Below are positions 527 to 58,520 of a stretch of 64,000 nt of DNA, one piece after another. The stretch spans positions 24,490 to 88,489 of the forward strand of contig SLDR01000010.1 in assembly GCA_007125155.1 (NCBI GenBank), read 5' to 3'. Source of the DNA: Candidatus Campbellbacteria bacterium. GTDB taxonomy: Bacteria > Patescibacteriota > Minisyncoccia > Phycocordibacterales > CSBR16-193. The translations under genes were made by a program, and so were the position numbers. The number at the start of each line of letters is the position of its first letter. The stretch's first letter is position 1. The notes under the pieces are model-generated. The model made no database searches, was not told the DNA's origin, and saw only the letters and a list, made by a program, of their open reading frames with translations.

Positions 527-773
527 AGGGACCTTTGAGAAGCGAATCGCAAAAACGATTCAGTTGTTTAAAATGACCTAAAGCTGTTCGGAAAAGATGT
601 GATTACCTACGGGGAAAGCCGGACATACCGAGGATTCGATATATCTTCTAAAGCGCGCGGAAGATGAAGGTTACTACCTACGGGGAAAGCCGTCGGAAAC
701 AAAGATGTCATTTCCGAAAGTGGACACTCAAGGGTGTTCGGTTTATCTTAAATAACAAACTTTTCAAGGTCCT
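527..773 (+). ncRNA. Candidate structured non-coding RNA of unknown family
   Basis: Closing stem 529-542/760-772, second long-range stem 563-571/748-756 and several internal hairpins. An exact 18-nt repeat TACCTACGGGGAAAGCCG occurs at 604-621 and 675-692. No long ORF; flanked by a promoter and a terminator. Confidence 0.7.
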
Positions 774-774
774 G

Positions 775-846
775 AACAAAAGCCCCGCCGAGCGGGTCTT
801 TTGTTTTTAAAACAAAAGACCCGTCTATTTTTTAAAGACGGGTCTT
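775..846. terminator. Two back-to-back intrinsic terminators (ncRNA on +, ORF 857..1075 on -)
   Basis: AACAAAAGCCCCGC-CGA-GCGGGTCTTTTGTT (775-805) and AAGACCCGTCT...AGACGGGTCTT (816-846). Confidence 0.75.
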
Positions 847-856
847 AAAATGTGGA

Positions 857-1075
857 TCATAGTCCGATCTTGCTTTTGCTCAGCACCCTGAGAAGTGGGG
901 ACGAGACTTTCACATGTCTGGTTTTGACATGATCTAAAACCGTGATCGACTTGACCTTCAGACATATGTCAGGTCCGTGATCGATCTTTTCCAGATCAAC
1001 TACTCCCTCGATCGCGACGTCCTTAAAGTCTGTTTTTCCCCTGTTCGCCTCCTTGATGAAAACTTCAGCTTCCAT
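857..1075 (-). CDS. Small hypothetical protein (72 aa)
   Basis: GGGAGG RBS (1081-1086), upstream boxA-like motif, TTTACT-17-TTTAAT promoter and a downstream terminator. Confidence 0.7.
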   Translation of the reverse strand: MEAEVFIKEANRGKTDFKDVAIEGVVDLEKIDHGPDICLKVKSITVLDHVKTRHVKVSSPLLRVLSKSKIGL

Positions 1076-1100
1076 TATTACCTCCCATGAGTATTACTTT

Positions 1101-1112
1101 TTTATAAAGAAC
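1101..1112 (-). promoter_or_regulatory. boxA-like element GTTCTTTATAAA
   Basis: Between the promoter and RBS of ORF 857..1075; resembles rrn boxA (GCTCTTTAACAA / GTTCTTTGAAAA). Confidence 0.55.
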
Positions 1113-1278
1113 TTTATTGACGACTCGAAACATTAAAGCATGAAATAATAAATAAGTAAATAGCTTGAAAACATAGCGATCCGGGTCTTTTAGGGCCGAC
1201 TCCTTAAGGGCGATCGGATTGACAAATCGGCATCTATGATAAAGAATTCCAAAAGGTCTTGGAACAACAAACAACATT

Positions 1279-1290
1279 GATCTTTAAAAG
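1279..1290 (+). promoter_or_regulatory. boxA-like element GATCTTTAAAAG
   Basis: Downstream of TTGACA (1219-1224) and abutting the AGGAGG RBS of ORF 1303..1878. Confidence 0.5.
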
Positions 1291-22655: not shown

Positions 22656-22880
22656 ATTTCACCTTTAATTACGGTTTATTAAAATAATTCATATTATTAT
22701 ACTATATTTTTTACCACTCTCCTTAATTTGCCAATTTTTATTTGCGAGATGACGTATCCACTCTTACCGATTCGATACAGGTATTGAGGCCGCCTTTAAG
22801 TCTTGATAGGGCAAAGGATCTGTGGTATGGTTCCGTTCGGACATCGAACCTTTTAACCTTATCAAAGGAGGTGCCGGATC

Positions 22881-23210
22881 ATGCCTTCAAAGGAGTGTGT
22901 CGATAAGAATACGGAAGGCGTATCACGTATCTTATATTATCTCTCTGAAGGGTCAAAGGAAGTCGAGGAAATATGCGGAGGCTGTGAAGAGATTCATATT
23001 ATAACGGTCTCATTTTATGAGGAGGTATTCGCGGAGCTTGAAAGCGGAGAAGTCAAATACTTCGAGGAACTTATTCTCAGGAAAAGCGAGTATCCCGCAT
23101 GTCCCGACTGCCGGGGAAATCCTTTTTTTAACTTCACTAAACTGATAGGAGAGGTCAGAGAGGAGCTCGACAGAGAGAGGAAGGAGGAGTCTAAAAAGAT
23201 AAAGCAGTGA
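22881..23210 (+). CDS. Hypothetical protein with two CxxC pairs
   Basis: TTGATA-17-TATGGT promoter, AGGAGG RBS, CGGC and CPDC, terminator at 23216-23254. Confidence 0.75.
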   Translation: MPSKECVDKNTEGVSRILYYLSEGSKEVEEICGGCEEIHIITVSFYEEVFAELESGEVKYFEELILRKSEYPACPDCRGNPFFNFTKLIGEVREELDRERKEESKKIKQ

Positions 23211-23215
23211 TCCAT

Positions 23216-23254
23216 GATCCCCGCCGATGCGATCGGCGGGGATCTTTCTTATCG
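23216..23254. terminator. Hairpin terminator between convergent genes
   Basis: GATCCCCGCCGAT-GCG-ATCGGCGGGGATC followed by TTTCTT. Confidence 0.75.
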
Positions 23255-33637: not shown

Positions 33638-33649
33638 GTACTTTGAGAG
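33638..33649 (+). promoter_or_regulatory. boxA-like element GTACTTTGAGAG
   Basis: Follows the TTGACT-17-TATATT promoter (33593-33621). Confidence 0.45.
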
Positions 33650-33743
33650 TTACTTCCCGTCCATAGAAGGGAGTCGACGGTCACTTAAGTGGCGCTGGAA
33701 AATTTTTAAATGAAAGAAGAAGAAAGAGAAGGAGGTTAACAAT

Positions 33744-34349
33744 ATGGAAAGCAATGACCTGAGAGTTGTCAGAGCGGATAGTATGGATCTTTTCAAAAAA
33801 TCGGTGGCTTTACAAAAGTCGGTCTATTGTAATGAAAGGAGGTATGAGGACCCAAATGATCACATGGATCCTTATGCTTTTGATGATTATGATAGAGAGA
33901 GGCAAACCAGAAGAATTTTAATTATGGGTAAGGATGATATCCCTTTGGCTACGGCCAGGGTGATCATTCCCGGAAGTTTGAAGCTACCCGCATTTTCCTT
34001 GCAACCACAGATAGAGGAAAGTCTTTCGGATAAGATGCCGGTGGTTGAGTGTTCCGCCTTTTGTGCGTCGAGATCCGCATGCAAAGAAGCCGGGGTGTCC
34101 CAGAAAACGAGGAGAAAGATACTGCTGATGTTGATCGATTCCCTTTGTGGTTTGGCTGAGGAGATTGGTCTGGATCATTCGGTGATGACATTGGAGAAGG
34201 TGCTCTATGTTTATCTCCAAAGGTGCGGATTCAAACTGAAGGCCGAAGGTCAACCTGTTTATTATTTCGGCTGGCGTATCACCTGTTGGGGATCTAGAGA
34301 AGACATGGTATTTGGTGTAAAGAATGCTTCTTTGAGTAAGACTAATTGA
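33744..34349 (+). CDS. GNAT acyltransferase of the LuxI-like / FeeM / PEP-CTERM-associated type
   Basis: VYCNE...DDYD...ATARVI...LP...VVECSAFC...LQRCGF...GQPVYYFGWR; AGGAGG RBS; terminator at 34367-34398. Confidence 0.75.
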   Translation: MESNDLRVVRADSMDLFKKSVALQKSVYCNERRYEDPNDHMDPYAFDDYDRERQTRRILIMGKDDIPLATARVIIPGSLKLPAFSLQPQIEESLSDKMPVVECSAFCASRSACKEAGVSQKTRRKILLMLIDSLCGLAEEIGLDHSVMTLEKVLYVYLQRCGFKLKAEGQPVYYFGWRITCWGSREDMVFGVKNASLSKTN

Positions 34350-34401
34350 ACGGGTAAGTAACAATTAAAAGGCGTCCTTTTTACAAAGGGCGCTTTTATT
34401 T

Positions 34402-39602: not shown

Positions 39603-39614
39603 GTTCTTTAACAA
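39603..39614 (+). promoter_or_regulatory. boxA-like element GTTCTTTAACAA
   Basis: One mismatch from E. coli rrn boxA GCTCTTTAACAA; lies between TTGACC-17-TATATA (39533-39561) and an AGGAGG RBS. Confidence 0.65.
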
Positions 39615-39635
39615 ACAAAGACCAAGGAGGTTATC

Positions 39636-40025
39636 GTGACAGCCATTATAAAAACCTATATTCAATTTTTCTTTACAGGTCATTGTTTATTAAAATATTC
39701 CATACAGGAGGTTGAAGAAAGAGAGCTGCCTTATGACATCTTGATCCCTATAAACGCTTACGGTTACAGGTTCTTTGACGTCATCGTCATACCTTATTCT
39801 TATAATGGCCTAAACCTGACGTGTAAAAGTGAAAGATTCGATTTCTCGGCAAATTACTATTTCAGTGACAGGATCTACACGATAGACGAATTCAGGAAAT
39901 TTTTCCCAAAGGAGGAGCAAATGATAAAAATAGCCTCATTGGTCGGTTGTGGAAGGATCGCACGATGCAGTCCCGGAAATTTCGTACCCATTGGGATCGA
40001 TGATGAGATAGTTGAACCGATTTGA
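39636..40025 (+). CDS. Hypothetical protein (129 aa)
   Basis: Own promoter, AGGAGG RBS and terminator (40056-40080). Confidence 0.8.
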   Translation: MTAIIKTYIQFFFTGHCLLKYSIQEVEERELPYDILIPINAYGYRFFDVIVIPYSYNGLNLTCKSERFDFSANYYFSDRIYTIDEFRKFFPKEEQMIKIASLVGCGRIARCSPGNFVPIGIDDEIVEPI

Positions 40026-40055
40026 ATTGTTGCGCCCTTACTCGAAGTTAGCTTG

Positions 40056-40080
40056 AAGCCCCTCTTCAATGAGGGGCTTT
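40056..40080 (+). terminator. Intrinsic terminator
   Basis: AAGCCCCTC-TTCAAT-GAGGGGCTTT. Confidence 0.75.
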
Positions 40081-40139
40081 AGTATTATTTTTTGTACGCA
40101 TGTGCTTTATTTTTTTTAAAAATGTGTTATGATTTTTCA

Positions 40140-40464: not shown

Positions 40465-40472
40465 TCTCTACC

Positions 40473-40583: not shown

Positions 40584-40595
40584 GTTCTTTGAGTT
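40584..40595 (+). promoter_or_regulatory. boxA-like element GTTCTTTGAGTT
   Basis: Follows the TTGCCT-17-TATTAT promoter (40540-40568) and precedes a GGGAGG RBS. Confidence 0.55.
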
Positions 40596-40632
40596 TTGAT
40601 CCCAACGATCAACAAAACAAAGGGAGGTAGTT

Positions 40633-40773
40633 ATGTTCTCGGGAGGATTACAAGTAACTTCAAATTGCCCGCATTGTAAAAGGTCCGGAGGGGTTATGGT
40701 CATTCTAATGATGCTCTCCAAAACCTTGTTTTTCTGCAAACTCTGTTCTCGTAACTTCAGGTCTGACTCTTAA
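40633..40773 (+). CDS. Small zinc-ribbon protein (46 aa)
   Basis: Manual translation MFSGGLQVTSNCPHCKRSGGVMVILMMLSKTLFFCKLCSRNFRSDS; promoter, RBS and terminator all present; not in the ORF track. Confidence 0.75.
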   Translation: MFSGGLQVTSNCPHCKRSGGVMVILMMLSKTLFFCKLCSRNFRSDS

Positions 40774-40794
40774 CGTGAAACTTAACCTTATTAC

Positions 40795-40828
40795 AAAACA
40801 CCCTTCTTGGTCCAAGAAGGGTGTTTTT
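40795..40828. terminator. Bidirectional terminator
   Basis: AAAACACCCTTCTTG-GTC-CAAGAAGGGTGTTTT. Confidence 0.85.
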
Positions 40829-41934
40829 TATATTTTGAACTCCATGACGTCTCCGTCCTTTACCACATACTGTTTACCTTCCGTTCTAATGTATCCCCTC
40901 TCGCGCGCGGAACTCTTTGATCCACACTCAATAAGTTTGTGCCATTCAATAACATCAGCCTTGATGAACTTATCATGAAAATCCGAATGGATGACCCTCC
41001 CCGCCTCGGGTGCCGTGGAACCTGATCTGACATCCCAAGCCCGGGTCTCTTTTTCTCCGGTTGTGAAAAAAGTAACCAGGTTTAAAAGTTCGTAACCCGA
41101 TCTGATCACGTCTTCGATTCCGGCATTTTCTTCTCCACCCATTTCCCTCCTGAAACCGGACCGTTCATCATCGTGGACTCCGGCTATCTCCAGCTCCACG
41201 CCGATATCAACCTCGATGATGGGGGCGTTCGGAGTATTGTACTCAATGGCCGAGATCAGAGAAGGAAAACGTTCATCTTTTATCTCGGTTATGTTGTGAG
41301 ATCCTGTTTTTTTATTGAATACATAAAGCACCGGTTTGGCTGTGAGGAGGTTGAGGTGTTTGAACATATCTCTTTCTTTTTCACTCATGTCATCAGAGGA
41401 TGCGAACTTGCCCTTTTCAAGCACGTTCTTTAATGCGTCAAGAACCTCCATCTCTTCACGGGCACTTTTACTATTCGCTTTGAGTTCCTTTTCAATTTTT
41501 ATCTTTCTTCTTTCAACGGTCTGGAGATCGGACATTATGAGTTCAAGATTTATGGTCTCTATGTCCTGGCGTGGATCTATCACACCGGAGACATGTATTA
41601 CGTCGTCATCTTCGAAGGTTCGCACCAAATGGAGGATGACGTCGACCTCTCGAACATTGCTTAAAAAAGAGTTGCCCAGACCTTCACCTTCGGATGCACC
41701 TTTTATGAGTCCGGCGATATCGACGAAACGAGCCACAGCGGGCACTTTCTTATCTGAGCGACTGAACTCATTGAGTCTGTCAAGTCTTATGTCGGGAACC
41801 GCCACCACGCCTATCGACGGTTCTATTGTGCAAAAAGGATAATTTTCCGCAGGTACGGACTGCTCGGTCAGAGCATTAAAGAGACTGGATTTCCCAACAT
41901 TGGGCAAACCCACGATTCCTATTGAAAGCGACAT
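40828..41934 (-). CDS. ychF: Redox-regulated ATPase YchF
   Basis: GLPNVGKS, NYPFCTIEP, DIAGL, GEGLGN and a TGS domain. Start moved to MSLSIG. Confidence 0.97.
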   Translation of the reverse strand: MSLSIGIVGLPNVGKSSLFNALTEQSVPAENYPFCTIEPSIGVVAVPDIRLDRLNEFSRSDKKVPAVARFVDIAGLIKGASEGEGLGNSFLSNVREVDVILHLVRTFEDDDVIHVSGVIDPRQDIETINLELIMSDLQTVERRKIKIEKELKANSKSAREEMEVLDALKNVLEKGKFASSDDMSEKERDMFKHLNLLTAKPVLYVFNKKTGSHNITEIKDERFPSLISAIEYNTPNAPIIEVDIGVELEIAGVHDDERSGFRREMGGEENAGIEDVIRSGYELLNLVTFFTTGEKETRAWDVRSGSTAPEAGRVIHSDFHDKFIKADVIEWHKLIECGSKSSARERGYIRTEGKQYVVKDGDVMEFKI

Positions 41935-43860: not shown

Positions 43861-43982
43861 GTCACTCAATTATCAATTCCCATAAATTCGTTTTCCGGTC
43901 AGCGACCTTCCTGTCGATTTTTTGGGATTTTCAACACATAAAAGAAAAGACCCTTCGATGAAAAAGGGTCCCTGTTAAATGA

Positions 43983-45341
43983 TCAGCTTATATTTTTATT
44001 CTTTTTTGTCGGATAACCGCAATCTTTTATCTCGGGACACTTCCCGTAGGTCATACACTGAGGCTCCGTATAGTCCGCAAGATCCGGGTGTGCGATCTTG
44101 ATCTTCGTTGCCATATCCCGGGCTATCCTTCGTATCTCCCACTGAGCTTCGGGACACGCCCTTTTTCCTATACTGTGGATCGCATTCCAACCGTTTATGT
44201 GTATCCAGTCGTAGATCTTCAAGGAATGAGGTACGACTCCGACCGCATCGCCCTTGGGTACTCCATCTTTTGTCAGCTCATCGTAAAGCTTAATTAGAAT
44301 GGAGTGAAGCCTTGTGTATTCGGTCAAGAATTCCGATCTCACGATCGACGGAGGCACGACCATTCTTTCTTCGGGGTCGTCCACGGCGTCTTCCAGGGCA
44401 TTGTAAATGCTCTCTACGCTCTGGTTCCAAGTTCTCTGTCTTGTTGCTTGATGGAAACAGGTCAAGGACATCTCTGTCAAAAATTCGAAATGGATGTGCT
44501 TAAGGTTTGCCAGCTCGGCTTCGTCTCTTTGGACCACCGCCCTTTCGATCCCCCATCCGATATCCTCCTCGGCCGGTATCATGGATCCCAGCATAATGAC
44601 GGGAGTTTTATGTCTTTTAAAACTCTCTTTGAGTTTTCTCAACATCAGAACCATCGTTAAGTTGTACGATGAGAAAAGTTGCGAAGAGGGATACCAGCTT
44701 AAAGGCTCGTAGTTAAACCCGAGATCTTCGAATAAATATGGTGTTCTGTTTGAAGCCAGAGCTTTCATTTTCTTCACCACCTCCAAGGTTTCGGACGACA
44801 CTTCAGTGTTTTTCGACATCGAGATCAAGTCACATATCTCTCGGGCATTCCCGGTCGTGGTAATGTTGGTCTTGGTGTAAAGTGGAAGAAGAAAACGCGC
44901 ATCTTCAGCTGTTATACCGGCCTCACGGGTTTTGTTATAGAAATCGAAAGTGTGTCGGAACACCCTTTCGGTCTCCGTTCCCAGTCTTGATCTTTTTATG
45001 GAATCGGGAATGTGAAAACCTCTATCGGCGCTTGCTCTTCTTAGGGACTGCTGTAGATGTTCCAGGTATTCCGGTAAACATAAGAACAAAGTCGTTGCTC
45101 GTGACAGATCTTCTATGCTGAAAGTGAAATGGACCTGGTCGCCGACCGAACCGTGCCCTCTTCCGAAACTGTTCTCTATCACGACCCTTTCCTTTTTCAA
45201 TCGTTCTTCCTTTGGCATCGCGAGAAGCTGCTTCATTATTACTTCCGTAGAGTCCTTTTTAAAGCAACTTAAAGCGGCGGCCGCCACCAGTGTTTGAGGA
45301 TCTTCCGGGCATCCTATCAGTTTAACTTTGAAATCATACAT
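43983..45341 (-). CDS. thyX: FAD-dependent thymidylate synthase, tandem two-domain form
   Basis: GHGSV, SRAT, QQSLR, EDARFLLP...TTGNARE; second repeat HQATRQRT...KRACPEAQWEIR...CPE. Confidence 0.85.
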   Translation of the reverse strand: MYDFKVKLIGCPEDPQTLVAAAALSCFKKDSTEVIMKQLLAMPKEERLKKERVVIENSFGRGHGSVGDQVHFTFSIEDLSRATTLFLCLPEYLEHLQQSLRRASADRGFHIPDSIKRSRLGTETERVFRHTFDFYNKTREAGITAEDARFLLPLYTKTNITTTGNAREICDLISMSKNTEVSSETLEVVKKMKALASNRTPYLFEDLGFNYEPLSWYPSSQLFSSYNLTMVLMLRKLKESFKRHKTPVIMLGSMIPAEEDIGWGIERAVVQRDEAELANLKHIHFEFLTEMSLTCFHQATRQRTWNQSVESIYNALEDAVDDPEERMVVPPSIVRSEFLTEYTRLHSILIKLYDELTKDGVPKGDAVGVVPHSLKIYDWIHINGWNAIHSIGKRACPEAQWEIRRIARDMATKIKIAHPDLADYTEPQCMTYGKCPEIKDCGYPTKKNKNIS

Positions 45342-45407
45342 TCCGCACCTCCTTGTAAAGCGGGTTATTGTAAATGGACACTCGTTTTATCTTCGGCTGT
45401 TATAACA

Positions 45408-48954: not shown

Positions 48955-48999
48955 TAAAAAAACTTTTAACGTGTGTTAGTATTGGTTCATAAGATATTT

Positions 49000-49115
49000 G
49001 CGGTCCGTACAGTGAAGAGGGGTGAAAATCCCCCGCTAACGCGTAACGGTCAGAGCCCGACCCTGTATGGAATGTTCCGGAAGGAGCCGCGCAAGGTTCG
49101 CGTCAAACCGAGGGG
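49000..49115 (+). ncRNA. Cobalamin-riboswitch-like leader (compact variant)
   Basis: Stems GCGGT/GCCGC and TCCGTACAG/CTGTATGGA; T-loop GGG-TGAAAAT-CCC; GCGTAACGGT and AGCCCGA resemble B12-box elements; located upstream of nrdD. Confidence 0.6.
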
Positions 49116-49168
49116 ATCATTTTGCTTGGCGCTTGTAGCCAAAATTTTTATTAATAAACATATAACTT

Positions 49169-51256
49169 ATGTACTCGAAAATAAAAAAAAGGAACGGAGG
49201 CACAGTGAGCTTCGATGATGAAAAGATAGTCCGGGCGATAGCAAAAGCCGGCGAAGCAACCGGTGAATTCGATCTGAAAGAGGCGCGTAAGTTAACAAAA
49301 AAGGTTCTTGAGGCTTCAAAAAACAGCATCAAGAATAAGATCCCCAAAGTTGAAGAGATCCAAGACGTTGTTGAAGATGTTCTTCTTAATTCAAAGTACA
49401 AAAAGACGGCCAAGGCATACATCCTATACAGAGACCAACATAGACTGCTGAGGGATATGACCAACTCCGTCAACAACGGTTTGGTCGACAATTATCTTGT
49501 AAGATCAGATTGGAAGGTCAAGGAGAACAGTAATATGGCCTACTCTCTCCAGGGTCTGAATAACTATATATCAAGTGAGGTAAGCAAGAATTATTGGTTA
49601 AGCAGGATATATCCTGAGAATGTAAGAGATGCACACAATGAAGGAGATTTTCATATCCATGATCTCAGTATTCTTTCCGTCTATTGTGTGGGATGGGACC
49701 TTTTAGCGCTTTTAATGAACGGTTTCACCGGAGTCGAAGGCAAAGTGTCCAGTAAACCGCCGAAACACTTCAGAGCCGCTTTGGGACAGGTGACCAATTT
49801 CTTCTATACACTTCAAGGCGAGGCGGCCGGAGCCCAGGCTTTCAGCAACTTCGACACATTGCTCGCCCCTTTCATAAGATACGATGAGTTAAACTACAAA
49901 GAGGTGAAACAGGCCCTTCAAGAGTTCATTTTCAATGTTAACATTCCGACACGAGTCGGATTTCAAACCCCGTTCACCAACGTGACGTTGGATCTTTCGG
50001 TTCCCGATTATTATGCCGAACAATCGGTCATTATCGGCGGTAAACCCAAAAGGGAAAAATACAAGGATTTTCAGGAAGAAATGAATATCTTCAATAAGGC
50101 CCTATTGGAGGTAATGTCCGAAGGAGACGCCAGCGGAAGGGTCTTCACATTCCCGATCCCGACATACAACATCACAAGCGACTTCGACTGGAATAGTGAT
50201 ATTAGTCGGCTACTTTGGAAAGTGACCGCCAAATACGGGCTTCCATATTTCTCGAATTTTATAAATTCAGATATGAAACCGGAGGATGCGCGATCCATGT
50301 GCTGCCGTTTGCGGATAGACAATAGAGAACTTGAAACGAGAGGTGGAGGTCTGTTCGGAGCCAATCCGCTTACAGGTTCGATCGGGGTCGTAACAATTAA
50401 TCTTCCACGACTGGGATATATCTCGAAGAACAAAGAAGAATTCTTTGATAATCTGAAGAACTTGATGTACTTGGCAAAGGACAGCTTGGAGATAAAAAGA
50501 AAGATCTTGGAAAGGTTCACAGAGAATGATCTTTATCCCTATACCAAATTCTATCTTAAAGGGATCAAAGACCAGTACGGCAGTTATTGGAAGAACCACT
50601 TCTCCACTATCGGTATAGCGGGAATGAATGAGGCCGTCCAAAACCTTTACGGGAAGAACATCGCCACTCCGGAAGGTCAGGAGTTCTCAAAAGAGGTTCT
50701 TGAACTAATGAGAGAGGAAATGGTGAAATTCCGAGATGAGACCGGAAACAACTACAATTTGGAAGCAACACCGGCGGAAGGTACCCTTTTCAGACTTGCG
50801 ATCCTCGACCAGAAAAAACATCGAGATCCCATCTTTGCCAACGGAAGAGGAAAGAATGTGAAAAGCCCTTTCTATACAAATTCCACCCATCTACCGGTCA
50901 ATTATACGGATGACGTATTCGAAATGCTTGATCTTCAGGATGATCTTCAAACGAAGTACACCGGAGGAACGGTGGCTCATTTGTTCTTCGGCGAAAAGAT
51001 AGAAGATGGGAATTCAGTCAAAAATTTGGTCAAAAAGATCTGCGAAAATTACAGAATGCCATACTTCACGATAAGCCCTACATTCAGCGTATGTCCCGAC
51101 CATGGATACATTCCCGGAGAGGTTCCCGTCTGTGACAAATGTAAAGGCAAATGCGAGGTCTATTCGAGGATCGTGGGTTACTTGCGACCTGTAAATCAAT
51201 GGAATGACGGAAAGAGATCCGAGTTCGTAATTCGAAAGACATATAAAAATCAATAA
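49169..51256 (+). CDS. nrdD: Anaerobic (class III) ribonucleoside-triphosphate reductase
   Basis: ATP cone, SMCCRL, EATPAEG, CxxH...CxxC and the glycyl-radical motif RIVGYLRPV. Confidence 0.97.
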   Translation: MYSKIKKRNGGTVSFDDEKIVRAIAKAGEATGEFDLKEARKLTKKVLEASKNSIKNKIPKVEEIQDVVEDVLLNSKYKKTAKAYILYRDQHRLLRDMTNSVNNGLVDNYLVRSDWKVKENSNMAYSLQGLNNYISSEVSKNYWLSRIYPENVRDAHNEGDFHIHDLSILSVYCVGWDLLALLMNGFTGVEGKVSSKPPKHFRAALGQVTNFFYTLQGEAAGAQAFSNFDTLLAPFIRYDELNYKEVKQALQEFIFNVNIPTRVGFQTPFTNVTLDLSVPDYYAEQSVIIGGKPKREKYKDFQEEMNIFNKALLEVMSEGDASGRVFTFPIPTYNITSDFDWNSDISRLLWKVTAKYGLPYFSNFINSDMKPEDARSMCCRLRIDNRELETRGGGLFGANPLTGSIGVVTINLPRLGYISKNKEEFFDNLKNLMYLAKDSLEIKRKILERFTENDLYPYTKFYLKGIKDQYGSYWKNHFSTIGIAGMNEAVQNLYGKNIATPEGQEFSKEVLELMREEMVKFRDETGNNYNLEATPAEGTLFRLAILDQKKHRDPIFANGRGKNVKSPFYTNSTHLPVNYTDDVFEMLDLQDDLQTKYTGGTVAHLFFGEKIEDGNSVKNLVKKICENYRMPYFTISPTFSVCPDHGYIPGEVPVCDKCKGKCEVYSRIVGYLRPVNQWNDGKRSEFVIRKTYKNQ

Positions 51257-51259
51257 ATA

Positions 51260-51952
51260 TTGATGATAATAGGCGGATTCCAAAGGTTCTCGTTAATTGA
51301 TTACCCCGGGAAAACTTGTGCCGTGATATTTACCCGAGGATGTGGATTTCGTTGCAAATATTGCCACAATCCGGAACTTGTAATACCGGAAAAATATTCA
51401 GCAAAGATCGGACTCGAATCGATAATGACTTTTCTGGAAGGCCGTCGCAATAAGCTTGATGCGGTGACCATCTCCGGGGGAGAGCCGACCGACCAAATAG
51501 ATATCGAACCGGTGATCGGTGATCTTAAAAGAATGGAGTTTTTGATCAAACTCGACACCAACGGTACGCGTCCCGAAGTGCTGAAGAGTTTGATAGAGAT
51601 GGAAATGATCGATTACGTCGCAATGGATGTAAAGGGGCCTTTCGAAAAGTACGAGGACATAACCGGATGTTACGTGGATACGGAAAAGATAAAGGAAAGT
51701 ATCGATATCGTGCTGAATTCGGGTGTAGATCACGAATTCAGAACAACCGTGGCATCCGAGATCCTTAGTGAAGAAGACCTCCTGAAGATAGCCATGATGA
51801 TCACCGGAGCAAAACGTTATTATCTTCAGACATTCACATCTTCAAAGATGATATGTACAGAACCCTCCGCACTCTCACCTCTCCCGATTAAAGATATGCA
51901 AAGTTGCGCCCGTAAAATCAGGGGGTATGTTAAGGATTGCCGGGTTAGATGA
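51260..51952 (+). CDS. nrdG: Anaerobic RNR activating protein (radical SAM)
   Basis: CGFRCKYCHN, SGGEPT and KLDTNG motifs. Confidence 0.95.
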   Translation: MMIIGGFQRFSLIDYPGKTCAVIFTRGCGFRCKYCHNPELVIPEKYSAKIGLESIMTFLEGRRNKLDAVTISGGEPTDQIDIEPVIGDLKRMEFLIKLDTNGTRPEVLKSLIEMEMIDYVAMDVKGPFEKYEDITGCYVDTEKIKESIDIVLNSGVDHEFRTTVASEILSEEDLLKIAMMITGAKRYYLQTFTSSKMICTEPSALSPLPIKDMQSCARKIRGYVKDCRVR

Positions 51953-51987
51953 ATTACGGTCGGAGATATCGATCGAAAGAATACGAC

Positions 51988-52365
51988 CTATCTGTCAGAC
52001 CACAGACCATGTACGTTGCAATACTCTCTCGCAGTAACACTCTCACCTTTGATACTGAACTCGGCTTCCGGTGCATCGCCCGGTTTTAGGAACTTTCGGC
52101 AGTATTTTCCGTCCACTATGACCTCTATCCACTCTATGTAATGCTCCTCTGTCATGGGATGGGGGTCGGAGCCGACCTTTACCTTGACCCCATTCTCCGT
52201 CGTCTCTATGACCGGAACATGTTTTTCCAGTCCTTCATCTTTGGTCTTCTCTTCCTTCAATTCCATTGGTTGACCGCAACATACGAGTTCTCCGAAACCT
52301 GTATGCAGAAGCTCGACAATGTTGCCGCACACGTTACATTTATATATCTGTTTAAGTTTTGTCAT
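51988..52365 (-). CDS. dfx: Desulfoferrodoxin (superoxide reductase)
   Basis: CNVCGN...[17 protein letters not shown] and CNVHGLW motifs. Confidence 0.96.
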
Positions 52366-52475
52366 ATTTAATTTTTAATAAATTAATAAAGATCTTTCAC
52401 CTGTGATGGAATCCCGATGTTCCCATTCTTCCGTTAGATTTGTTTACCTTGAGCTGACGCCTCCCGCCGATCTCG

Positions 52476-52676
52476 TCACCCGCAAGCTCTCCGGTCTTGA
52501 TTGAACTTTTCGATCGAACGTTCATAAGTCGCCTCGGCTTGAGGTGAAAAGTAGCAGGCGGGCAACTCGCCCCTTCCCTTGTGATACTCCAGACATTTGC
52601 AACATATCCCCTTTCTTGGGCAACCTGAGTATGTGCAGTTGCATTTTTCTATGTTCTCCTCTCTTTTGCACTCCAT
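52476..52676 (-). CDS. Small Cys-rich protein (DUF6485-like)
   Basis: MECKREENIEKCNCTYSGCPRKGICCKCLEYH...LPACYF; start moved to ATG 52676. Confidence 0.8.
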   Translation of the reverse strand: MECKREENIEKCNCTYSGCPRKGICCKCLEYHKGRGELPACYFSPQAEATYERSIEKFNQDRRACG

Positions 52677-52785
52677 TGTGATAATTTTAACACACTTTAA
52701 CGGACCAAATCCAAGTATTGACCCGGAAGACGATATGTGCAATAAATTAAATACAAGACTGAACCTTAAAAAAAGGAGTAGTACA

Positions 52786-53100
52786 ATGGAACAGAGATCC
52801 ATCCTTTTCTGGATAGAACCCGTTGAGGCGACCGAAGAGATCGACCCCGAACACTGTGACGAATGTGGTGAGATATGTGTAGGTACCGGCCATCTGAAAA
52901 TATGTGCACTGGTTGAGGGAGATGATCCCGATAACTGCATCTATTATCAAATATGTAGAACATGCAAAAGCTCATTTCTGAGTGAAGGTGGGGCTCAAAG
53001 TCATCATCCATCGGAGGAGAGATTCGTTGAAGCGGAGATATTTGCCGATTCCGGAATATTAGGTATTTTCGCAGAGAATCGATCCAAATACTTCAACTGA
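52786..53100 (+). CDS. Hypothetical protein with two CxxC pairs
   Basis: AAGGAG RBS before ATG 52786; CDEC...CRTC; TTGACC promoter; terminator near 53122-53148. Confidence 0.7.
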   Translation: MEQRSILFWIEPVEATEEIDPEHCDECGEICVGTGHLKICALVEGDDPDNCIYYQICRTCKSSFLSEGGAQSHHPSEERFVEAEIFADSGILGIFAENRSKYFN

Positions 53101-53214
53101 AACTGATCTTTTTTACTATTGAAGAGCCGGCCGAGTCGGCTCTTTTTTATAGGCATAATGGTGTTGACCGAGTAAGGTTGAAAATGAAACAATATAATAT
53201 TACTAACATTCCAT

Positions 53215-53535
53215 ATGGGAAACAAAAGAACATTTGCGGGAGGAAAGTTCACCCGACGCCACACATCCGCCATACCGGCGTCGGTCGGTCTTTTGAAGAT
53301 GCTCCATGATAGGTCGGAAGTTAAAAAGATATCCCTGGGTATCATAAAGGCCGGCAAACCGTCCGGCGGAAAGATGCATGTAAAACTCAAACTACGCTGT
53401 GGAGGTTTTTTAATGACCGTAAGGGGAAACAACAGCATTCAGGAGATGGGAGTTTACACAGATGATGCAAAAAAGACATTGGAAGCGATAAGTAATGAAA
53501 CATTGAAACAAGGAATGGATGTTCATATAGACTAA
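53215..53535 (+). CDS. DUF2103-like protein
   Basis: HTSAI, KKISLGII and VRGNNSIQE motifs; hairpin at 53551-53573. Confidence 0.75.
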   Translation: MGNKRTFAGGKFTRRHTSAIPASVGLLKMLHDRSEVKKISLGIIKAGKPSGGKMHVKLKLRCGGFLMTVRGNNSIQEMGVYTDDAKKTLEAISNETLKQGMDVHID

Positions 53536-53605
53536 TTCTTATGAAAAATATCCCGGCAGTTCCACTGCCGGGGTTATTATTTAAAAAAATAAGGAGATCT
53601 CGGAC

Positions 53606-54382
53606 TTAAAGACAGACTTCCGTCCCGACCTTATTGCCCTCAATGAAATCGATTATCACTCGATCGTTCATCCCGGCTATGGCGACTTTTTTTACTCCTC
53701 CTTCAAGACACATGATGGCCTCTCTTCTTTTGACCTTCATTCCGCCGGTTCCTTCTCTTGAGCATCCGGTCACGTCGGGTTTTAGGAGGCCGTTTATCTT
53801 TTTCAAGATCTTGGCATTTGAATTTTTTAGCGGATCACTGTCATATATGCCCCCAACCTCGGTTATAAAGAGAACACCGTCTGCGTCTATAAGTATGGCT
53901 ATCATTCTTGCAAGCTGATCGTTCTCGCTTATTCCTTTCTCCATCATTTTTATCTCCTCGTCGGATACTCTGTCGTTCTCGTTGATGACCGGCACAAAAG
54001 GCGTTCCGAAGCAATCAATAATTCCCTTTCGGATATTTTCTCTTTCATTACCATCGGTCCAATTTGCGAAAGTCACCAATGTTTCGCACACTTCCATACC
54101 GAATTTATTAAGGGAATCTCCCCAACTGTTCATAAGGTGTCTGCTACCGATTCCGGCAATGTCTTTTTTATTGAACTTCCGTGAGAATGAATGATCGAGA
54201 CCAAGTCGAGTGATCGTTTCCCTACCCGCTTGAATGGCACCCGAGGATACTATGGCTATGCCTACCCCGGCACTGCTGGCTTCGGCGACCTGTTTGGCGA
54301 CAGATTGGAATATATCAGGGTCCAGTTTGCCACTCTTTGACATTAATGTTCGTGTACCGAATTTTACGACAAATTTTTTCAT
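53606..54382 (-). CDS. proB: Glutamate 5-kinase without a PUA domain
   Basis: VVKFGT, VSSGAI, PVINEND, NDQLA and GTGGMKVK motifs; AGGAGG RBS before ATG 54382. Confidence 0.85.
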   Translation of the reverse strand: MKKFVVKFGTRTLMSKSGKLDPDIFQSVAKQVAEASSAGVGIAIVSSGAIQAGRETITRLGLDHSFSRKFNKKDIAGIGSRHLMNSWGDSLNKFGMEVCETLVTFANWTDGNERENIRKGIIDCFGTPFVPVINENDRVSDEEIKMMEKGISENDQLARMIAILIDADGVLFITEVGGIYDSDPLKNSNAKILKKINGLLKPDVTGCSREGTGGMKVKRREAIMCLEGGVKKVAIAGMNDRVIIDFIEGNKVGTEVCL

Positions 54383-54427
54383 ATATTCTCCTCCTTCTTC
54401 ATCATACACTCCTGAAGCTTCAAGGGT

Positions 54428-55180
54428 TTATATATATTCTTTCAAAAATATAGATTCGTTCCCCTTAAAAGGTATCGACTTGGATCCTCTCTTACACAAA
54501 GGGCAGGTCTTCGAGCTCCATTTTTTTATTTCCAACTCTATCAAAGCTGTCAATTTCATGCCGTTATGCTCCTCGAACGGCAGTTTGGAGGGACAATGCA
54601 CCAGAGCTCCTACAAAAGGCAACCATTTTGCTCTGAAGGGGTTATCTCGTTTTACCGTGCGTCTCGCAAGGTTTAAATTTCGGCCGTTACCGACGACGCC
54701 TTCTATCTGCAATACAGTTTCTCCGGACCCTATGACCCACCTGTCCCATTTCATACCGGTATCGCTTTCACGGTCCTTTTCCGTAAAGCCGACCCTGGCG
54801 TTTATGAGCCGCGCCAGATCACCGGCAAACATTATTTCCTTTTCGGAAGAACAGATAACCCAGTCCACTTTTGTGTGCAGATAAATAAAGAGATCCTCCA
54901 GGCAAAACAGAAGCTGGCAGGCCAAGAACTCAGATATCAAAGGCCTGTTAAGGACTTTAAGACAATCTACGTAACCGTCACTGCAACACACTTCCCCGCC
55001 AAGATCGACGTGAGGTTTATTCGGATCGCCGTCATGGGACCAGATCGCATGGTTTTCCTTGAAAAGATCCATGAAACTCGACATTTCGATCTTTGAGTCT
55101 TTGGTAAAGAAACTCCTGCAATTGACACTGTACCTCCTGACATAGCTCTCAACGATCTCCGTAAAACTTGATGTGCTCAT
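54428..55180 (-). CDS. Divergent type I phosphoribosyltransferase (OPRTase-like)
   Basis: H...G...SDGYVDC, GFTEK, a degenerate PRPP loop VLQIEGVVGNG and C-terminal W...CPLC; AAGGAG RBS before ATG 55180. Confidence 0.7.
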   Translation of the reverse strand: MSTSSFTEIVESYVRRYSVNCRSFFTKDSKIEMSSFMDLFKENHAIWSHDGDPNKPHVDLGGEVCCSDGYVDCLKVLNRPLISEFLACQLLFCLEDLFIYLHTKVDWVICSSEKEIMFAGDLARLINARVGFTEKDRESDTGMKWDRWVIGSGETVLQIEGVVGNGRNLNLARRTVKRDNPFRAKWLPFVGALVHCPSKLPFEEHNGMKLTALIELEIKKWSSKTCPLCKRGSKSIPFKGNESIFLKEYI

Positions 55181-55200
55181 TTTAGATACTCCTTGTTTTT

Positions 55201-55212
55201 TGTTCAAAGAAC
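55201..55212 (-). promoter_or_regulatory. boxA-like element GTTCTTTGAACA
   Basis: Between a TTGACC-17-TACACT promoter and the RBS of the PRTase-proB unit. Confidence 0.6.
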
Positions 55213-55331
55213 TTTCAGTGGGACCTTATATGTATTCTAGCCGGAAGTGTATACCAAAAAAAAATTCGGGTCAAAACCCGCTCTTTTGTCCGGAGAATGA
55301 TCGGCTTAAGTTTGTGCTCTCTTTATCTGGA

Positions 55332-56099
55332 TCATTCAAGCCCTTTGGCCTCTAAGTCTTCGAATATATCGATTCTAACTGACGGAGATAAAGCCAAGGC
55401 TTTAATAGAACCTTCCGCCTCTTCGATGGTGTGAGGTACTTCTTCATTTTCGATGTTTCTTAAAACCTCTTTCATTTGTTCGACCTTAAGTGTTCCCAGC
55501 TTCAAGGTCCTGTCGGATATGAACCAATATTGCAGCTCAGGCTCAAGTCGGTCCACTCTGCCATTTACCCTCTCAAGAGACTCACAAAGAAGTTTCATCG
55601 AGACTTGATTGGTGAAATTTATCCGCTCCGACATCGACATCTCGTCAATGAGCTCCTCGGAGAATATGACTTGCATTGAATCAAGCTTTCTTTTCCTCCT
55701 TATTATGCCAAATGTAGGGCCTAGTATCGCGATCCCGACTATACCGATAACCGCATCCTTCGGTTCCTCTTGTCTTCCAGACCAAGTCCTTAAGACCTTA
55801 CGGGTCTCATCCTCGGGATAATGAAAGGCGAGTTCTCTTAACAGCCAGACCGCTCTCTCCCGCGCCATCTCCCTGCTTGCGGGCAACAGAGGATGATGAT
55901 ACGGATCTTCCGTGCTTGTCTTTACAGAGCATTCGGCTACCGCAGTTCCGGGTAGGTAAATGTCGATATAATATCTGAAAAAAGAGGAAAATTTATCATC
56001 GATCTTGCTATAAGCCATAAGCGCTTCGCCATTCATTTTCAAATGGCCGGAACCGGCGACAGCGGGCGCTTTTTTTTTGTTATGCAAGTGTTTTTTCAT
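55332..56099 (-). CDS. Hypothetical protein
   Basis: 255-aa ORF with no recognised motif. Confidence 0.7.
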   Translation of the reverse strand: MKKHLHNKKKAPAVAGSGHLKMNGEALMAYSKIDDKFSSFFRYYIDIYLPGTAVAECSVKTSTEDPYHHPLLPASREMARERAVWLLRELAFHYPEDETRKVLRTWSGRQEEPKDAVIGIVGIAILGPTFGIIRRKRKLDSMQVIFSEELIDEMSMSERINFTNQVSMKLLCESLERVNGRVDRLEPELQYWFISDRTLKLGTLKVEQMKEVLRNIENEEVPHTIEEAEGSIKALALSPSVRIDIFEDLEAKGLE

Positions 56100-56263
56100 G
56101 ATAAAAGGTCCATATTCAAACGCAGTATATCACTTTTGGACTTCGATGCAAAAATTTCAGATTTACCAAGTTTCAAGCGCAATAATAATACTTGAAGAAT
56201 CCACTGACCATAAAAAAAGAGACGGTCAAACGCCCGCCTCTTTACTCAGGTGGAAGCGATCCT

Positions 56264-56533
56264 TTAGCCTGATATCACAAGCTTTCTTGAAAGCATTTTA
56301 TCAGGCGTGATCAATCTCAAATACTCACCCTCAAGGGTTATTCGTGTCATTCTGAAAAGAATATCGGAAGACTTCGCTAATGTGACCGTTTTTCCGCATC
56401 CGGAGCATCTCATCGAGAACACTTTATTTTCGGATCTTATCGTTATCTCACCCTCGCACTCTTGATGGAAGGCCTTCAGGTCTTCGAATCTGGGTTTAGA
56501 TATACCTTCTCCATTCAATATTATTGTGAACAT
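56264..56533 (-). CDS. Small zinc-ribbon-like protein
   Basis: HQEC...CSGC; AGGAGG RBS; boxA-like GATCTTTAAAAC at 56552-56563. Confidence 0.75.
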   Translation of the reverse strand: MFTIILNGEGISKPRFEDLKAFHQECEGEITIRSENKVFSMRCSGCGKTVTLAKSSDILFRMTRITLEGEYLRLITPDKMLSRKLVISG

Positions 56534-56595
56534 ATTCCACCTCCTTTTTTTGTTTTAAAGATCCGTCTCTGACCTGCCTTAAATATTGCAACAGA

Positions 56596-57486
56596 TCAAT
56601 AAGATGTCAAAAAAGATTCTGAGGACAGATCACGCGAAACACCGAATATCATTATCATCAAGCATAGATCGTAAAGTTCTACCATCGCTTTCATAAAATC
56701 GTCATCGCCCGGAAGGCAGTCCGCCTCCAAAAAGAAATAATAGTCCCAGTCCCTCTCTTCATTAATACCGAGCGTCCTTGAATGCAGTTTTGTAAGATTT
56801 ATATCAAGGTCGGCGAAGACTGAAAGAATATCCCTAAGTATGCCGGGTCTGTCTTTAATGCTTATTATCATAAGAGTTTTACCCGGTCCGGGTATGTCCT
56901 TGAGGATGCCGTCTTCCGTATGGGCAAGTACATAAAACTCGGTGGCATTACCTTTTCTGTCTTCGATGTTCTCCGCCAGGATCTTAAGACCGTACTTTTC
57001 GGCCGTTTCCTTTTGGCCTATGTATGCGATCGATGTATCCTTTGCGAACTTCGAAATGCCGAAGGTGGAACTGTTCTGGGCCTCTCTCTCGGCGCTCGGA
57101 TAGTTCAGGTTGAGCCATTTTCTGCACTGAGTCAGGACCTGAGGATGCGACCTTATCTTTTTGATCGTGCCGGGATCATCAGTATAAGAAAGAAGGTTAT
57201 GATTGATCTTAAGTTTGCATGAACCGATGACCGTAATGGGGTACTCCAAGATGGAATCCAATGTTTCCAGTACAAGTCCGCCGACGTAGTTCTCAATTGG
57301 AACCACTCCGAATTTCGCACTCCCGGAGCAAACTTCATCGAAGACATGCTCAATGGTCGGGGTGAATATGAATTCCGAAGAGTCAGTGAACATCTTCTCC
57401 GCAACCGTATGAGAGAATGTTCCTTTCGGGCCCAATACCGCCACGATATTCCGATCTTTGAGTTTGTTGCCCATTTTAGAGATCAT
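56596..57486 (-). CDS. pheA: Prephenate dehydratase with an ACT domain
   Basis: LGPKGTFS, GVVPIEN, SHPQVLTQC, DRPGIL and INLTKLHSR motifs. Confidence 0.92.
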   Translation of the reverse strand: MISKMGNKLKDRNIVAVLGPKGTFSHTVAEKMFTDSSEFIFTPTIEHVFDEVCSGSAKFGVVPIENYVGGLVLETLDSILEYPITVIGSCKLKINHNLLSYTDDPGTIKKIRSHPQVLTQCRKWLNLNYPSAEREAQNSSTFGISKFAKDTSIAYIGQKETAEKYGLKILAENIEDRKGNATEFYVLAHTEDGILKDIPGPGKTLMIISIKDRPGILRDILSVFADLDINLTKLHSRTLGINEERDWDYYFFLEADCLPGDDDFMKAMVELYDLCLMIMIFGVSRDLSSESFLTSY

Positions 57487-58382
57487 TTCACGAAATCGAG
57501 CCAGTGTTTGTAAGCCGGCAGCCTTCCGGAAACGGTTGCTTTATAAGCGTCCCTCACTTTCTCGGTCTTGGGGCCCTCTCCGCCCTCTCCAAAAATATGA
57601 CCGTCTATTTTACTTATGGAATTCACCTCGGTCGCCGTCCCTACGAAGAACGCCTCATCATAACCTTCAATATCTTCAGGTTTTATGTCCGTCTCCTCCA
57701 CCTTAAAGCCCATATTATTGATAATGAAGATAATGCTATCACGGGTTATGCCCGGAAATATCTTACCCTCCCTTGGAGTATGGAAGACATCATCCTTTAT
57801 AAAAAAAATATTCTCCCCCGGTCCTTCGGCGATACATCCTTCATGATCAAGAAACAGAGCCTCGTCATAACCCGACGCCCGAGCTTCCAGAGAAGCCATT
57901 ATCGAGTTGGAGTAGTGACCCGAGACCTTGGCGCTGAGAACAGCGGAATCGGGGTGTATCCTCTTAAAAGAGGATACTCTTACCGACACAGATTCTTTCT
58001 TGAAGTATTTATCCCATTCCCAAGCTATTATTGCAAAATGTAGTGACGCATCCGTAGGTAAGAGTCCCATTTTGTCTCCATAAAAAATGATGGGTCTGAT
58101 GTAGCATTCCTTGAGTTCATTATGTTTTACGACTTCAATAACTGCAGAAATTATATCCTCTCTTGAATAAGGTATATCCATCCCCACCACAGATGATGAG
58201 TTGAAAAGCCTGCCGATGTGATCTTTTAGCCTGAATATCGCCGGACCGTCTTCTGTCTTGTAACAGCGGATCCCTTCGAAGACGGCGGATCCGTAGTGAA
58301 GGCTGTGGCTCAAGATGGAAACCCCGGACTTCTCGTAAGGAACAATATCACCGTTCAACCAAATAAATTTTATGTCATTCAT
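57483..58382 (-). CDS. ilvE: Branched-chain amino acid aminotransferase
   Basis: HSLHYGSAVFEGIR, AKVSGHY, EGPGEN, GITR and GTATE motifs. Confidence 0.95.
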   Translation of the reverse strand: MNDIKFIWLNGDIVPYEKSGVSILSHSLHYGSAVFEGIRCYKTEDGPAIFRLKDHIGRLFNSSSVVGMDIPYSREDIISAVIEVVKHNELKECYIRPIIFYGDKMGLLPTDASLHFAIIAWEWDKYFKKESVSVRVSSFKRIHPDSAVLSAKVSGHYSNSIMASLEARASGYDEALFLDHEGCIAEGPGENIFFIKDDVFHTPREGKIFPGITRDSIIFIINNMGFKVEETDIKPEDIEGYDEAFFVGTATEVNSISKIDGHIFGEGGEGPKTEKVRDAYKATVSGRLPAYKHWLDFVK

Positions 58383-58520
58383 ATCTTATTTCGTTATGAA
58401 CTAACTGATTCATTCTATTAGGACACGGCCGTTAAGTCCATAGGGGTTTACAATGAACAAATATTGTACTATTGTTAAATACGTGACTGTCCTCTAAAAT
58501 TTAATAAGGAGGTTCTTGAA

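What the first reader, a model, noticed from the sequence alone, without database searches (positions are those of the whole stretch)
530..58500. boxA-like motif in the leaders of most orphan gene units: candidate Nus antitermination regulon for accessory genes
Seen in sequence: a motif close to rrn boxA sits between promoter and RBS of independently transcribed orphan units. Clear copies: 1101-1112(-) GTTCTTTATAAA, 1279 GATCTTTAAAAG, 33638 GTACTTTGAGAG, 39603 GTTCTTTAACAA, 40235 GTTCTTTGAATC, 40584 GTTCTTTGAGTT, 55201-55212(-) GTTCTTTGAACA, 56552-56563(-) GATCTTTAAAAC, and 530 GACCTTTGAGAA at the 5' end of the ncRNA. Weaker copies: 22846, 52761, 58489 and possibly before thyX. It is always in sense orientation and often followed by an A/C-rich tract and AGGAGG. 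I did not see it before dnaK, the r-protein genes or the synthetases. Established: boxA (GCTCTTTAACAA in E. coli) binds NusB/NusE in rrn leaders and also acts in suhB and some CRISPR leaders. Inference: this lineage reuses boxA as a general leader element for a class of accessory genes, for antitermination or translational control.
Basis: partly seen in the sequence, partly recalled or inferred. Interest (0 to 1): 0.85.

Follow-up and report, generated by a model that had tools for sequence, protein, structure and literature searches.

The report
boxA-tagged genes with unreadable ribosome sites
This tiny parasitic bacterium keeps dozens of stand-alone accessory genes with a ribosomal-RNA-type 'boxA' tag and a textbook ribosome-binding site that its own ribosome cannot pair with, which raises the possibility that these messages are written for the host cell's ribosomes.

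Summary
The motif is real and matches this genome's own 16S, 23S and tmRNA leader boxA. A matrix trained on relatives' rrn leaders hits 17 of 87 Shine-Dalgarno (SD)-led genes versus 12 of 381 others (antisense 2, shuffles 2.6). It follows the SD, not orphan status. The organism is a Parcubacteria (CPR) with NusB fused to Nudix, no Rho found, and a 16S end without anti-SD; core genes are SD-less. Yet the promoter-boxA-AGGAGG-ORF-terminator units keep their SD in 17 of 21 diverged, mostly syntenic orthologs, so they are not relics, and Rho antitermination is not supported. The class holds lipoproteins although Lgt and LspA were not found. Best reading (about 0.4, inferred): boxA/NusB marks RNAs not translated in this cell, and these mRNAs are meant for host ribosomes. 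Main rival: an in-cell NusB regulon; the only thymidylate synthase found is SD-led. No transfer is shown. The pattern recurs across the class and phylum. The scan noted boxA-plus-SD and SD-without-anti-SD before on other genomes (e1-7070692, e1-5058433).

The parts
478..486 (+). TGTGGATAA (DnaA-box-like; label recalled) upstream of the ncRNA promoter, present in 5 of 5 genus loci shown
514..519 (+). -10 hexamer TATAAT of the ncRNA
526..803 (+). Unassigned structured ncRNA. 5' boxA at 530-541 pairs with a 3' anti-boxA at 761-772; two copies of a UACG-loop motif at 605 and 676; terminator 777-803. No Rfam family. Found in 5 of 5 genus genomes.
   Evidence: (z -4.7)
814..1112 (-). Unit: boxA 1101-1112, SD 1081-1085, orphan ORF 857-1075 (72 aa), terminator ~814-856; SD and boxA kept in a syntenic ortholog of 40% identity
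1279..1924 (+). Unit: boxA 1279-1290 touching SD AGGAGG 1289-1294, orphan ORF 1303-1878, terminator ~1880-1924
22846..23250 (+). Unit: weak boxA-like site (-2.4 bits; the ortholog has a better one), SD 22866-22871, Cys-rich ORF 22881-23210, terminator
33638..34397 (+). Unit: boxA 33638-33649 (106 nt leader), SD 33730-33735, ORF 33744-34349 like an acyl-homoserine-lactone / N-acyl amino acid synthase, terminator
39603..40093 (+). Unit: boxA GTTCTTTAACAA 39603-39614, SD 39625-39630, orphan ORF 39636-40025, terminator; boxA and SD kept in a syntenic ortholog of 41% identity
40235..40501 (+). Unit: boxA 40235-40246, SD 40255-40259, 65-aa Zn-ribbon-like ORF 40267-40464, terminator
40584..40829 (+). 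Unit: boxA 40584-40595, SD 40623-40627, 46-aa CxxC ORF 40633-40773, terminator
43945..45379 (-). Unit: boxA 45368-45379, SD 45348-45353, two-domain thyX 43983-45341 (only thymidylate synthase found), terminator
52761..53148 (+). Unit: boxA 52761-52772, SD 52774-52778, Cys-rich ORF 52786-53100, terminator; an RNA-library contig covers 52773-53120
53544..55274 (-). Two-gene unit: promoter 55274-55246, boxA 55201-55212, SD 55189-55193, ORF 54428-55180 (no Pfam; phosphoribosyltransferase-like by eye), SD 54390-54395, amino-acid kinase (ProB-like) 53606-54382, terminator
56212..56610 (-). Unit: promoter TTGACA-17-AATATT 56610-56582, boxA 56552-56563, SD 56540-56545, ORF 56264-56533, terminator; an RNA-library contig covers 56252-56560
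58447..58820 (+). Unit: promoter 58447-58475, weak boxA-like site 58489-58500, SD 58507-58512, Cys-rich ORF 58521-58772, terminator

Best explanation
The genome uses two expression grammars. Core genes are SD-less, often leaderless or with A-rich leaders, which suits a ribosome without anti-SD (shown). A class of roughly 60-80 stand-alone accessory units has a sigma-70 promoter, then boxA, an A-rich spacer, AGGAGG 5-9 nt before the start, a short ORF and an intrinsic terminator (shown). In this cell boxA otherwise marks RNAs that are not translated: 16S, 23S, tmRNA and the ncRNA at 530 (shown by sequence). Inferred: the cell's own NusB(-Nudix)/S10 binds boxA on these mRNAs as it does on rRNA, keeps its own ribosomes off them (as boxA does in E. 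coli suhB) and protects or processes the 5' end. Inferred, not shown: the mRNAs then pass to the host cell, possibly through the relaxase-free T4SS-like machinery, and host ribosomes, which have an anti-SD, translate them into host-modifying proteins (lipoproteins, Zn-ribbon proteins, partial enzymes, metabolic boosters). Some members, such as thyX, may also be read in the parasite through the A-rich leader.
For: Own 16S 3' end and 24 of 24 ends examined in the order lack CCTCC. The SD is real independently of my gene caller: AAGGAGG opens a new ORF at spacing 5-9 in 35 of 317 occurrences, against at most 6 for each of 7 control heptamers. The SD is kept in 17 of 21 ortholog pairs (31-76% identity; leaders otherwise unalignable) against 2 of 183 for SD-less genes; 14 of 16 such pairs are syntenic. 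GC and GC3 equal the core. A strict boxA+AGGAGG pattern occurs in 26 of 63 anti-SD-less class genomes and 17 of 62 anti-SD-intact ones, so it does not depend on the own anti-SD. All 4 lipobox calls among 693 genes are SD-led, one a 17-kDa outer-membrane lipoprotein, while Lgt and LspA were not found. The closest non-CPR homolog of that lipoprotein (Desulfonatronospira record, 65%) has no boxA within 70 nt of its start, whereas the two CPR copies have one. An AHL-synthase-like member has no ACP/FAS motif matches in the genome (regular expressions only). A carbonic-anhydrase-like gene occurs as an SD+boxA copy and a 58%-identical SD-less copy. The SD class uses AUA for 36% of Ile codons, against 49% in SD-less genes and 57% in r-protein genes, in a genome with tRNA-Ile(UAU) and no TilS found. 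No Rho, no CsrA. A boxA-like site touches the nusB start in 4 of 7 loci read by eye. Two proteins have weak T4SS coupling-protein hits. 7 of the 8 RNA-library contigs listed lie in SD units.
Against: No transfer of RNA or DNA is shown. The SD+boxA thyX is the only thymidylate synthase found, while genes read by eye as its pathway partners (tmk, glyA, dcd) are SD-less, which points to use in the own cell. The AUA shift repeats only within the genus (G001, G005); it is absent in G241 and not significant in G113 once GC is controlled, and 36% is near a neutral expectation. In G241 the SD class is small and boxA is not clearly enriched (2 of 17 vs 2-6 of 176). One SD-less ORF passed a looser lipobox screen. 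Only 26 of 86 SD genes have a boxA at >=8 bits even with the relaxed matrix. The Nudix box of the own NusB lacks two catalytic glutamates. The middle of the 16S is not assembled. RNA contigs come from one study, may contain DNA, and cannot show level or location.
Confidence: 0.38

Rival explanations
1. In-cell Nus regulon. The own NusB(-Nudix)/S10 binds boxA to repress, time or stabilise accessory mRNAs that the own ribosome translates. AGGAGG is kept because a protein (bS1 or an unknown factor) or a purine-rich open leader helps initiation.
For: boxA matches the own rrn signal. boxA-like site at the nusB start. thyX looks needed in the cell. A-rich tracts precede the SD. E. coli suhB precedent (10.1101/091223, passages).
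Against: Does not explain exact AAGGAGG(TG) at canonical spacing conserved without an anti-SD, nor lipoproteins without Lgt/LspA. No CsrA.
Confidence: 0.32
2. DNA, not RNA, enters the host. Host RNA polymerase reads the consensus promoters and host NusB/E uses boxA against host Rho, as lambda nut sites do.
For: TTGAC lies upstream of 26 of 87 SD genes vs 41 of 381 others. The mRNA boxA differs from the own rrn boxA at position 8. Own genome has no Rho. The pattern also occurs in at least 121 viral stretches (not analysed further).
Against: Units are scattered singly among core genes. Most Patescibacteria T4SS clusters lack a relaxase (PMC12102498, passages). Relaxed boxA also sits before the own nusB.
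Confidence: 0.1
3. Relics of horizontal transfer: donor or phage leaders that have not yet decayed.
For: Members have non-CPR homologs.
Against: SD and often boxA are conserved in syntenic orthologs at 31-60% identity while the rest of the leader is not. Composition is ameliorated. The donor-like homolog lacks boxA. The pattern is absent from 5 of 5 non-CPR genomes, 13 Mb. Only 3 of 54 proteins hit PHROGs.
Confidence: 0.12
4. One reading: Nus antitermination against Rho in this cell.
For: boxA, NusB, NusA, NusG and S10 are present.
Against: No Rho over cut-off in a 99% complete genome; Rho in only 9 of 41 phylum genomes; units are short with own terminators.
Confidence: 0.03

Closest known systems
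rRNA-leader boxA with NusB/NusE(S10)/NusA/NusG (PMC10250234, abstract and outline seen)
   Same: Same motif, near the 5' end after a sigma-70 promoter; present in the own 16S and 23S leaders; the 16S boxA region can pair with the trailer (-14.8 kcal/mol).
   Different: Here it also precedes dozens of mRNAs, is relaxed at position 8, NusB carries a Nudix domain, and no Rho or SuhB was found.
boxA-mediated mRNA repression: E. coli suhB, C. koseri toxin-antitoxin, Nus autoregulation (Baniulyte et al., 10.1101/091223, passages seen)
   Same: boxA a few nt upstream of an SD; Nus-gene autoregulation (site at nusB).
   Different: There 0-7 sites per gamma-proteobacterial genome, acting with Rho and an anti-SD ribosome; here tens of sites in 745 kb, no Rho, no anti-SD.
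Anti-SD loss in a Parcubacteria subgroup (Tsurumaki et al. 2022, PMC9297842, passages seen)
   Same: Own lineage lacks CCTCC at the 16S 3' end.
   Different: The passages seen do not describe a retained, conserved SD-led gene class or a link to boxA.
Bacteroidia SD-blind ribosomes with SD-led rpsU (PMC9976891, search listing only)
   Same: SD-poor genome with a special SD-led subset.
   Different: Bacteroidia keep and occlude the anti-SD; here it is absent, so unmasking cannot explain the SD.
Relaxase-free Patescibacteria T4SS (PMC12102498, passages seen); phage early / auxiliary metabolic genes (recalled)
   Same: A possible conduit of unknown cargo; small stand-alone genes with strong promoter, SD and terminator.
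   Different: No mRNA cargo is reported in the passages seen; the units are chromosomal and vertically inherited.

Membership tests
boxA (NusB/NusE site) | Matches the organism's own rrn-leader boxA | tested here: met
   own 16S GTCCTTTGAAAA 16.4 bits, 23S GAACTTTGACAA 15.8; enrichment in SD leaders
boxA (NusB/NusE site) | Sense orientation, transcribed, near the 5' end | tested here: met
   antisense 2 of 87 vs sense 17 of 87; best promoter match 7-45 nt upstream. Transcription start sites were not mapped.
boxA (NusB/NusE site) | NusB and S10 encoded | tested here: met
   NusB by HMM; S10 by sequence and position after tuf
boxA (NusB/NusE site) | Physical binding by NusB-S10 | not testable with these tools
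   needs EMSA or CLIP
Nus antitermination of Rho-dependent termination | Rho present | tested here: not met
   0 matches over cut-off
Nus antitermination of Rho-dependent termination | SuhB present | tested here: inconclusive
   regular expression only, no match
suhB-type boxA translational repression | boxA close upstream of the SD | tested here: met
   most sites 22-45 nt before the start
suhB-type boxA translational repression | Own ribosome uses that SD; Rho completes repression | tested here: not met
   no anti-SD, no Rho
CsrA/RsmA regulon (GGA reader) | csrA present | tested here: not met
Host-translated mRNA cargo (hypothetical) | RNA or protein found inside host cells | not testable with these tools
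   RNA contigs show cover only

The most novel reading that the evidence does not exclude
Patescibacteria keep a chromosomal repertoire of effector genes written in the host's translation grammar (SD) and tagged with boxA, and deliver them as nucleic acid, most likely NusB-chaperoned mRNA, for expression inside the host cell. That would be a cellular parasite using a phage-like strategy, and it would give the relaxase-free CPR T4SS and the NusB-Nudix fusion a job. The figure covers both the RNA and the DNA route.
Probability: 0.45. Interest if true: 0.97.

Novelty: new variant of a known kind. Interest (0 to 1): 0.8.

Why it matters
How CPR epibionts manipulate their hosts, what their many orphan genes do and what their T4SS carries are open questions. 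A simple sequence grammar (boxA + SD + terminator in an anti-SD-less genome) picks out a candidate set of tens of genes per genome and makes a sharp test: whose ribosome translates them? Even the conservative reading gives a Nus regulon far larger than those in the passages I read, working without Rho, with an SD conserved in the absence of an anti-SD.

Tried and rejected
Rfam: no family in the window at gathering score; only chance hits for the ncRNA. The 23S HMM search found nothing, but the 23S 5' part was found by eye on C38. The mRNA boxA does not pair with its own 3' region more than with others (median -7.5 vs -7.6 kcal/mol), unlike the 16S and the ncRNA. boxA is not general before tRNAs (5 of 40 tRNA/tmRNA genes at >=8 bits) and not before the RNase P candidate. 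Phage origin: 3 of 54 PHROGs hits. The viral scan found >=121 stretches and was not followed up. The thyX query found no relatives in 60 class genomes at 1e-20, so its leader could not be compared there. The plasmid search gave only distant lipoprotein relatives. The Atlas gave no named family for C7:15210. Several SD-less genes had no RNA-contig cover; this proves nothing. The 0 of 87 'leaderless' count for SD genes is true by construction. About 6-10 of the 87 SD calls look like false internal starts of my own caller (by eye); they were left in all counts. Literature searches returned no title or abstract start describing boxA-SD units, a NusB-Nudix fusion or host translation of CPR mRNA; the library lacks most subscription papers and I read no supplements, which may bear on anti-SD counts and T4SS content.
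Full report
Setting. The window is part of a 745-kb, 38-contig genome rated 99% complete. Size, gene content and the named closest homolog of one gene (a Ca. Campbellbacteria record) place it in Parcubacteria / Patescibacteria; this placement is my inference. No gene caller was available, so I wrote one (693 genes). It rewards SD-like starts, so I tested the SD separately.

Observation. I recovered 16S leaders from relatives and trained a 12-nt matrix on 24 of them, leaving out the own leader, one atypical leader and a 3-nt stub. The own 16S leader site GTCCTTTGAAAA scores 16.4 bits. Equivalent sites precede the 23S (C38:15002), the tmRNA (C21:9762) and the ncRNA at window 530. Among 468 genes with at least 60 nt of upstream space, 17 of 87 SD-led genes and 12 of 381 SD-less genes score >=8 bits (p 7e-7); antisense 2 of 87; shuffles 2.6 +/- 1.4. 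With position 8 ignored it is 26 of 86 vs 21 of 381. Defining core genes by hits in 800 kb fetched from two distant genomes (400 kb of each, so partial), boxA is at background in core genes (6 of 178) and in SD-less non-core genes (6 of 209) and enriched only in SD-led non-core genes (17 of 81). The sites at 22846 and 58489 are not significant alone.

Anatomy. The unit is promoter, 7-45 nt, boxA, A-rich spacer, AGGAGG, 5-9 nt, start, short ORF (median 161 aa), terminator. Terminator-like hairpins follow 36 of 45 SD+boxA genes vs 58 of 381 SD-less genes. Only 10 of 54 tested proteins pass a Pfam cut-off; these 54 were most, not all, of the SD-led set. Cys content is 2.0% vs 0.66%. Core genes have no SD, and 122 of 381 have a -10-like hexamer 5-9 nt before the start, that is, look leaderless.

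The paradox. The own 16S continues after helix 45 without CCTCC, and so do 24 of 24 ends examined in the order, own included. This agrees with the anti-SD loss reported for a Parcubacteria subgroup (PMC9297842, passages). Still the SD is real: AAGGAGG opens a new ORF at spacing 5-9 in 35 of 317 occurrences, against at most 6 for seven control words. In 521 kb fetched from two genus relatives (parts of each), orthologs keep the SD in 17 of 21 pairs vs 2 of 183 for SD-less genes; a relaxed boxA is seen in 9 of the 21 orthologs vs 17 of 183. The four misses look like false starts of my caller. 14 of 16 SD pairs share neighbours. So the signal is inherited vertically and kept by selection.

Breadth. 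A strict boxA+AGGAGG pattern hits 95 of 251 class genomes (192 matches; reversed control 16) and, with a start codon added, 24 of 151 phylum genomes (53 listed matches; control 1), but 0 of 5 non-CPR genomes. Of 148 class genomes whose 16S end I could class by eye (6 matches were not listed), it occurs in 26 of 63 without anti-SD, 11 of 23 with a partial one and 17 of 62 with an intact one. The full analysis repeats in G005, G001 (relaxed matrix) and the single-contig G113 (7 of 44 vs 5 of 174, p 0.003), but is weak in G241. Kin are not independent.

Machinery. NusB is fused to a Nudix domain (Pfam, 3 of 3 tested); 38 of 39 genomes with a match have a frame of about 300 aa. The own Nudix box is degenerate, some relatives' are intact. 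NusA, NusG and S10 were recognised by motif and position. No Rho (9 of 41 in the phylum), CsrA (46), Lgt (31; 8 of 61 in the class), LspA (32), TilS (74) or ThyA (73) was found; the genome is not closed. A boxA-like site touches the nusB start in 4 of 7 loci by eye, like the Nus autoregulation described for gamma-proteobacteria (10.1101/091223, passages). Two proteins have weak T4SS coupling-protein hits; Patescibacteria T4SSs mostly lack a relaxase and have no known cargo in the passages read (PMC12102498).

Cargo clues. All 4 lipobox calls in 693 genes are SD-led (one of the four may be an ordinary signal peptide; a looser six-frame screen added one SD-less ORF). One is a 17-kDa outer-membrane lipoprotein whose nearest non-CPR homolog (Desulfonatronospira, 65%) has an SD but no boxA near its start, while the CPR copies have both (in the named CPR record the boxA lies about 128 nt upstream). 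The gene at 33744 looks like an AHL / N-acyl amino acid synthase in a genome with no ACP or FAS motif matches (regular expressions). A carbonic-anhydrase-like gene exists as one SD+boxA copy and one SD-less copy. The SD class avoids AUA (36% vs 49%; r-proteins 57%) though other A/T-ending pairs differ little; this holds in the genus but not in G241 or clearly in G113. Against a host-only role, the SD+boxA thyX is the only thymidylate synthase found.

Expression. One metatranscriptome (X1, contigs only) holds this organism. Of 23 contigs laid on 39200-59199, 8 were listed and 7 of these lie in SD units, for example 52773-53120, 54579-55218 and 56252-56560. This shows cover only: it cannot give level, ends or the cell in which the RNA lies, and DNA may be present.

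Verdict. Shown: boxA-like tag, its link to a conserved SD-led class, absence of anti-SD, and no Rho found. Inferred: NusB binding and translational silencing in the parasite. Speculative but best fitting: translation by host ribosomes (0.38 for the RNA route, 0.10 for the DNA route). The in-cell regulon (0.32) remains close. Earlier scan notes on other genomes describe the boxA-SD link (e1-7070692) and SD genes without anti-SD (e1-5058433); I saw them after forming my reading and do not count them as evidence. My nine literature searches showed no paper on this arrangement, within the limits of the library.

Noticed in passing
G000:C4:4960-5889 (L007) and L001-L006: NusB-Nudix fusion, directly upstream of rnc in the own genome; Nudix box intact in some relatives and degenerate in others. 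One literature search found no description.
   Followed up: partly
window 478-803: Genus-conserved structured ncRNA with a boxA/anti-boxA closing stalk like a pre-rRNA, two UACG-loop repeats that recall 16S helix 14 (recalled), and a DnaA-box-like site upstream.
   Followed up: partly
G000:C26:55300-57120 and C38:15002-15992: 16S and 23S are unlinked, each with its own boxA; the 16S carries an intron with a LAGLIDADG-like ORF and ends in a terminator.
   Followed up: no
G000:C21:6886-6959: tRNA-Ile with UAU anticodon, no TilS found, and strong AUA preference in r-protein genes.
   Followed up: partly
genome-wide: About a third of SD-less genes with upstream space have a -10 hexamer 5-9 nt before ATG (leaderless-like).
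   Followed up: partly
L309-L318 (G113): In G113 the SD class includes metabolic genes read by eye as pyrB, PRPP synthetase and nicotinamidase, like phage auxiliary metabolic genes.
   Followed up: no
G417:C1:24847-38700: One phylum genome has 17 strict boxA+SD matches, 8 of them within 14 kb: a good test island.
   Followed up: no
G000:C30:18844-19296: S10 has a long Lys-rich N-terminal extension.
   Followed up: no
window 30450-33353: Leucyl-tRNA synthetase with a Nudix insertion (Pfam).
   Followed up: no
G081: Four Lgt-like matches in one class genome, while most of the class has none; their leaders were not checked for SD.
   Followed up: no
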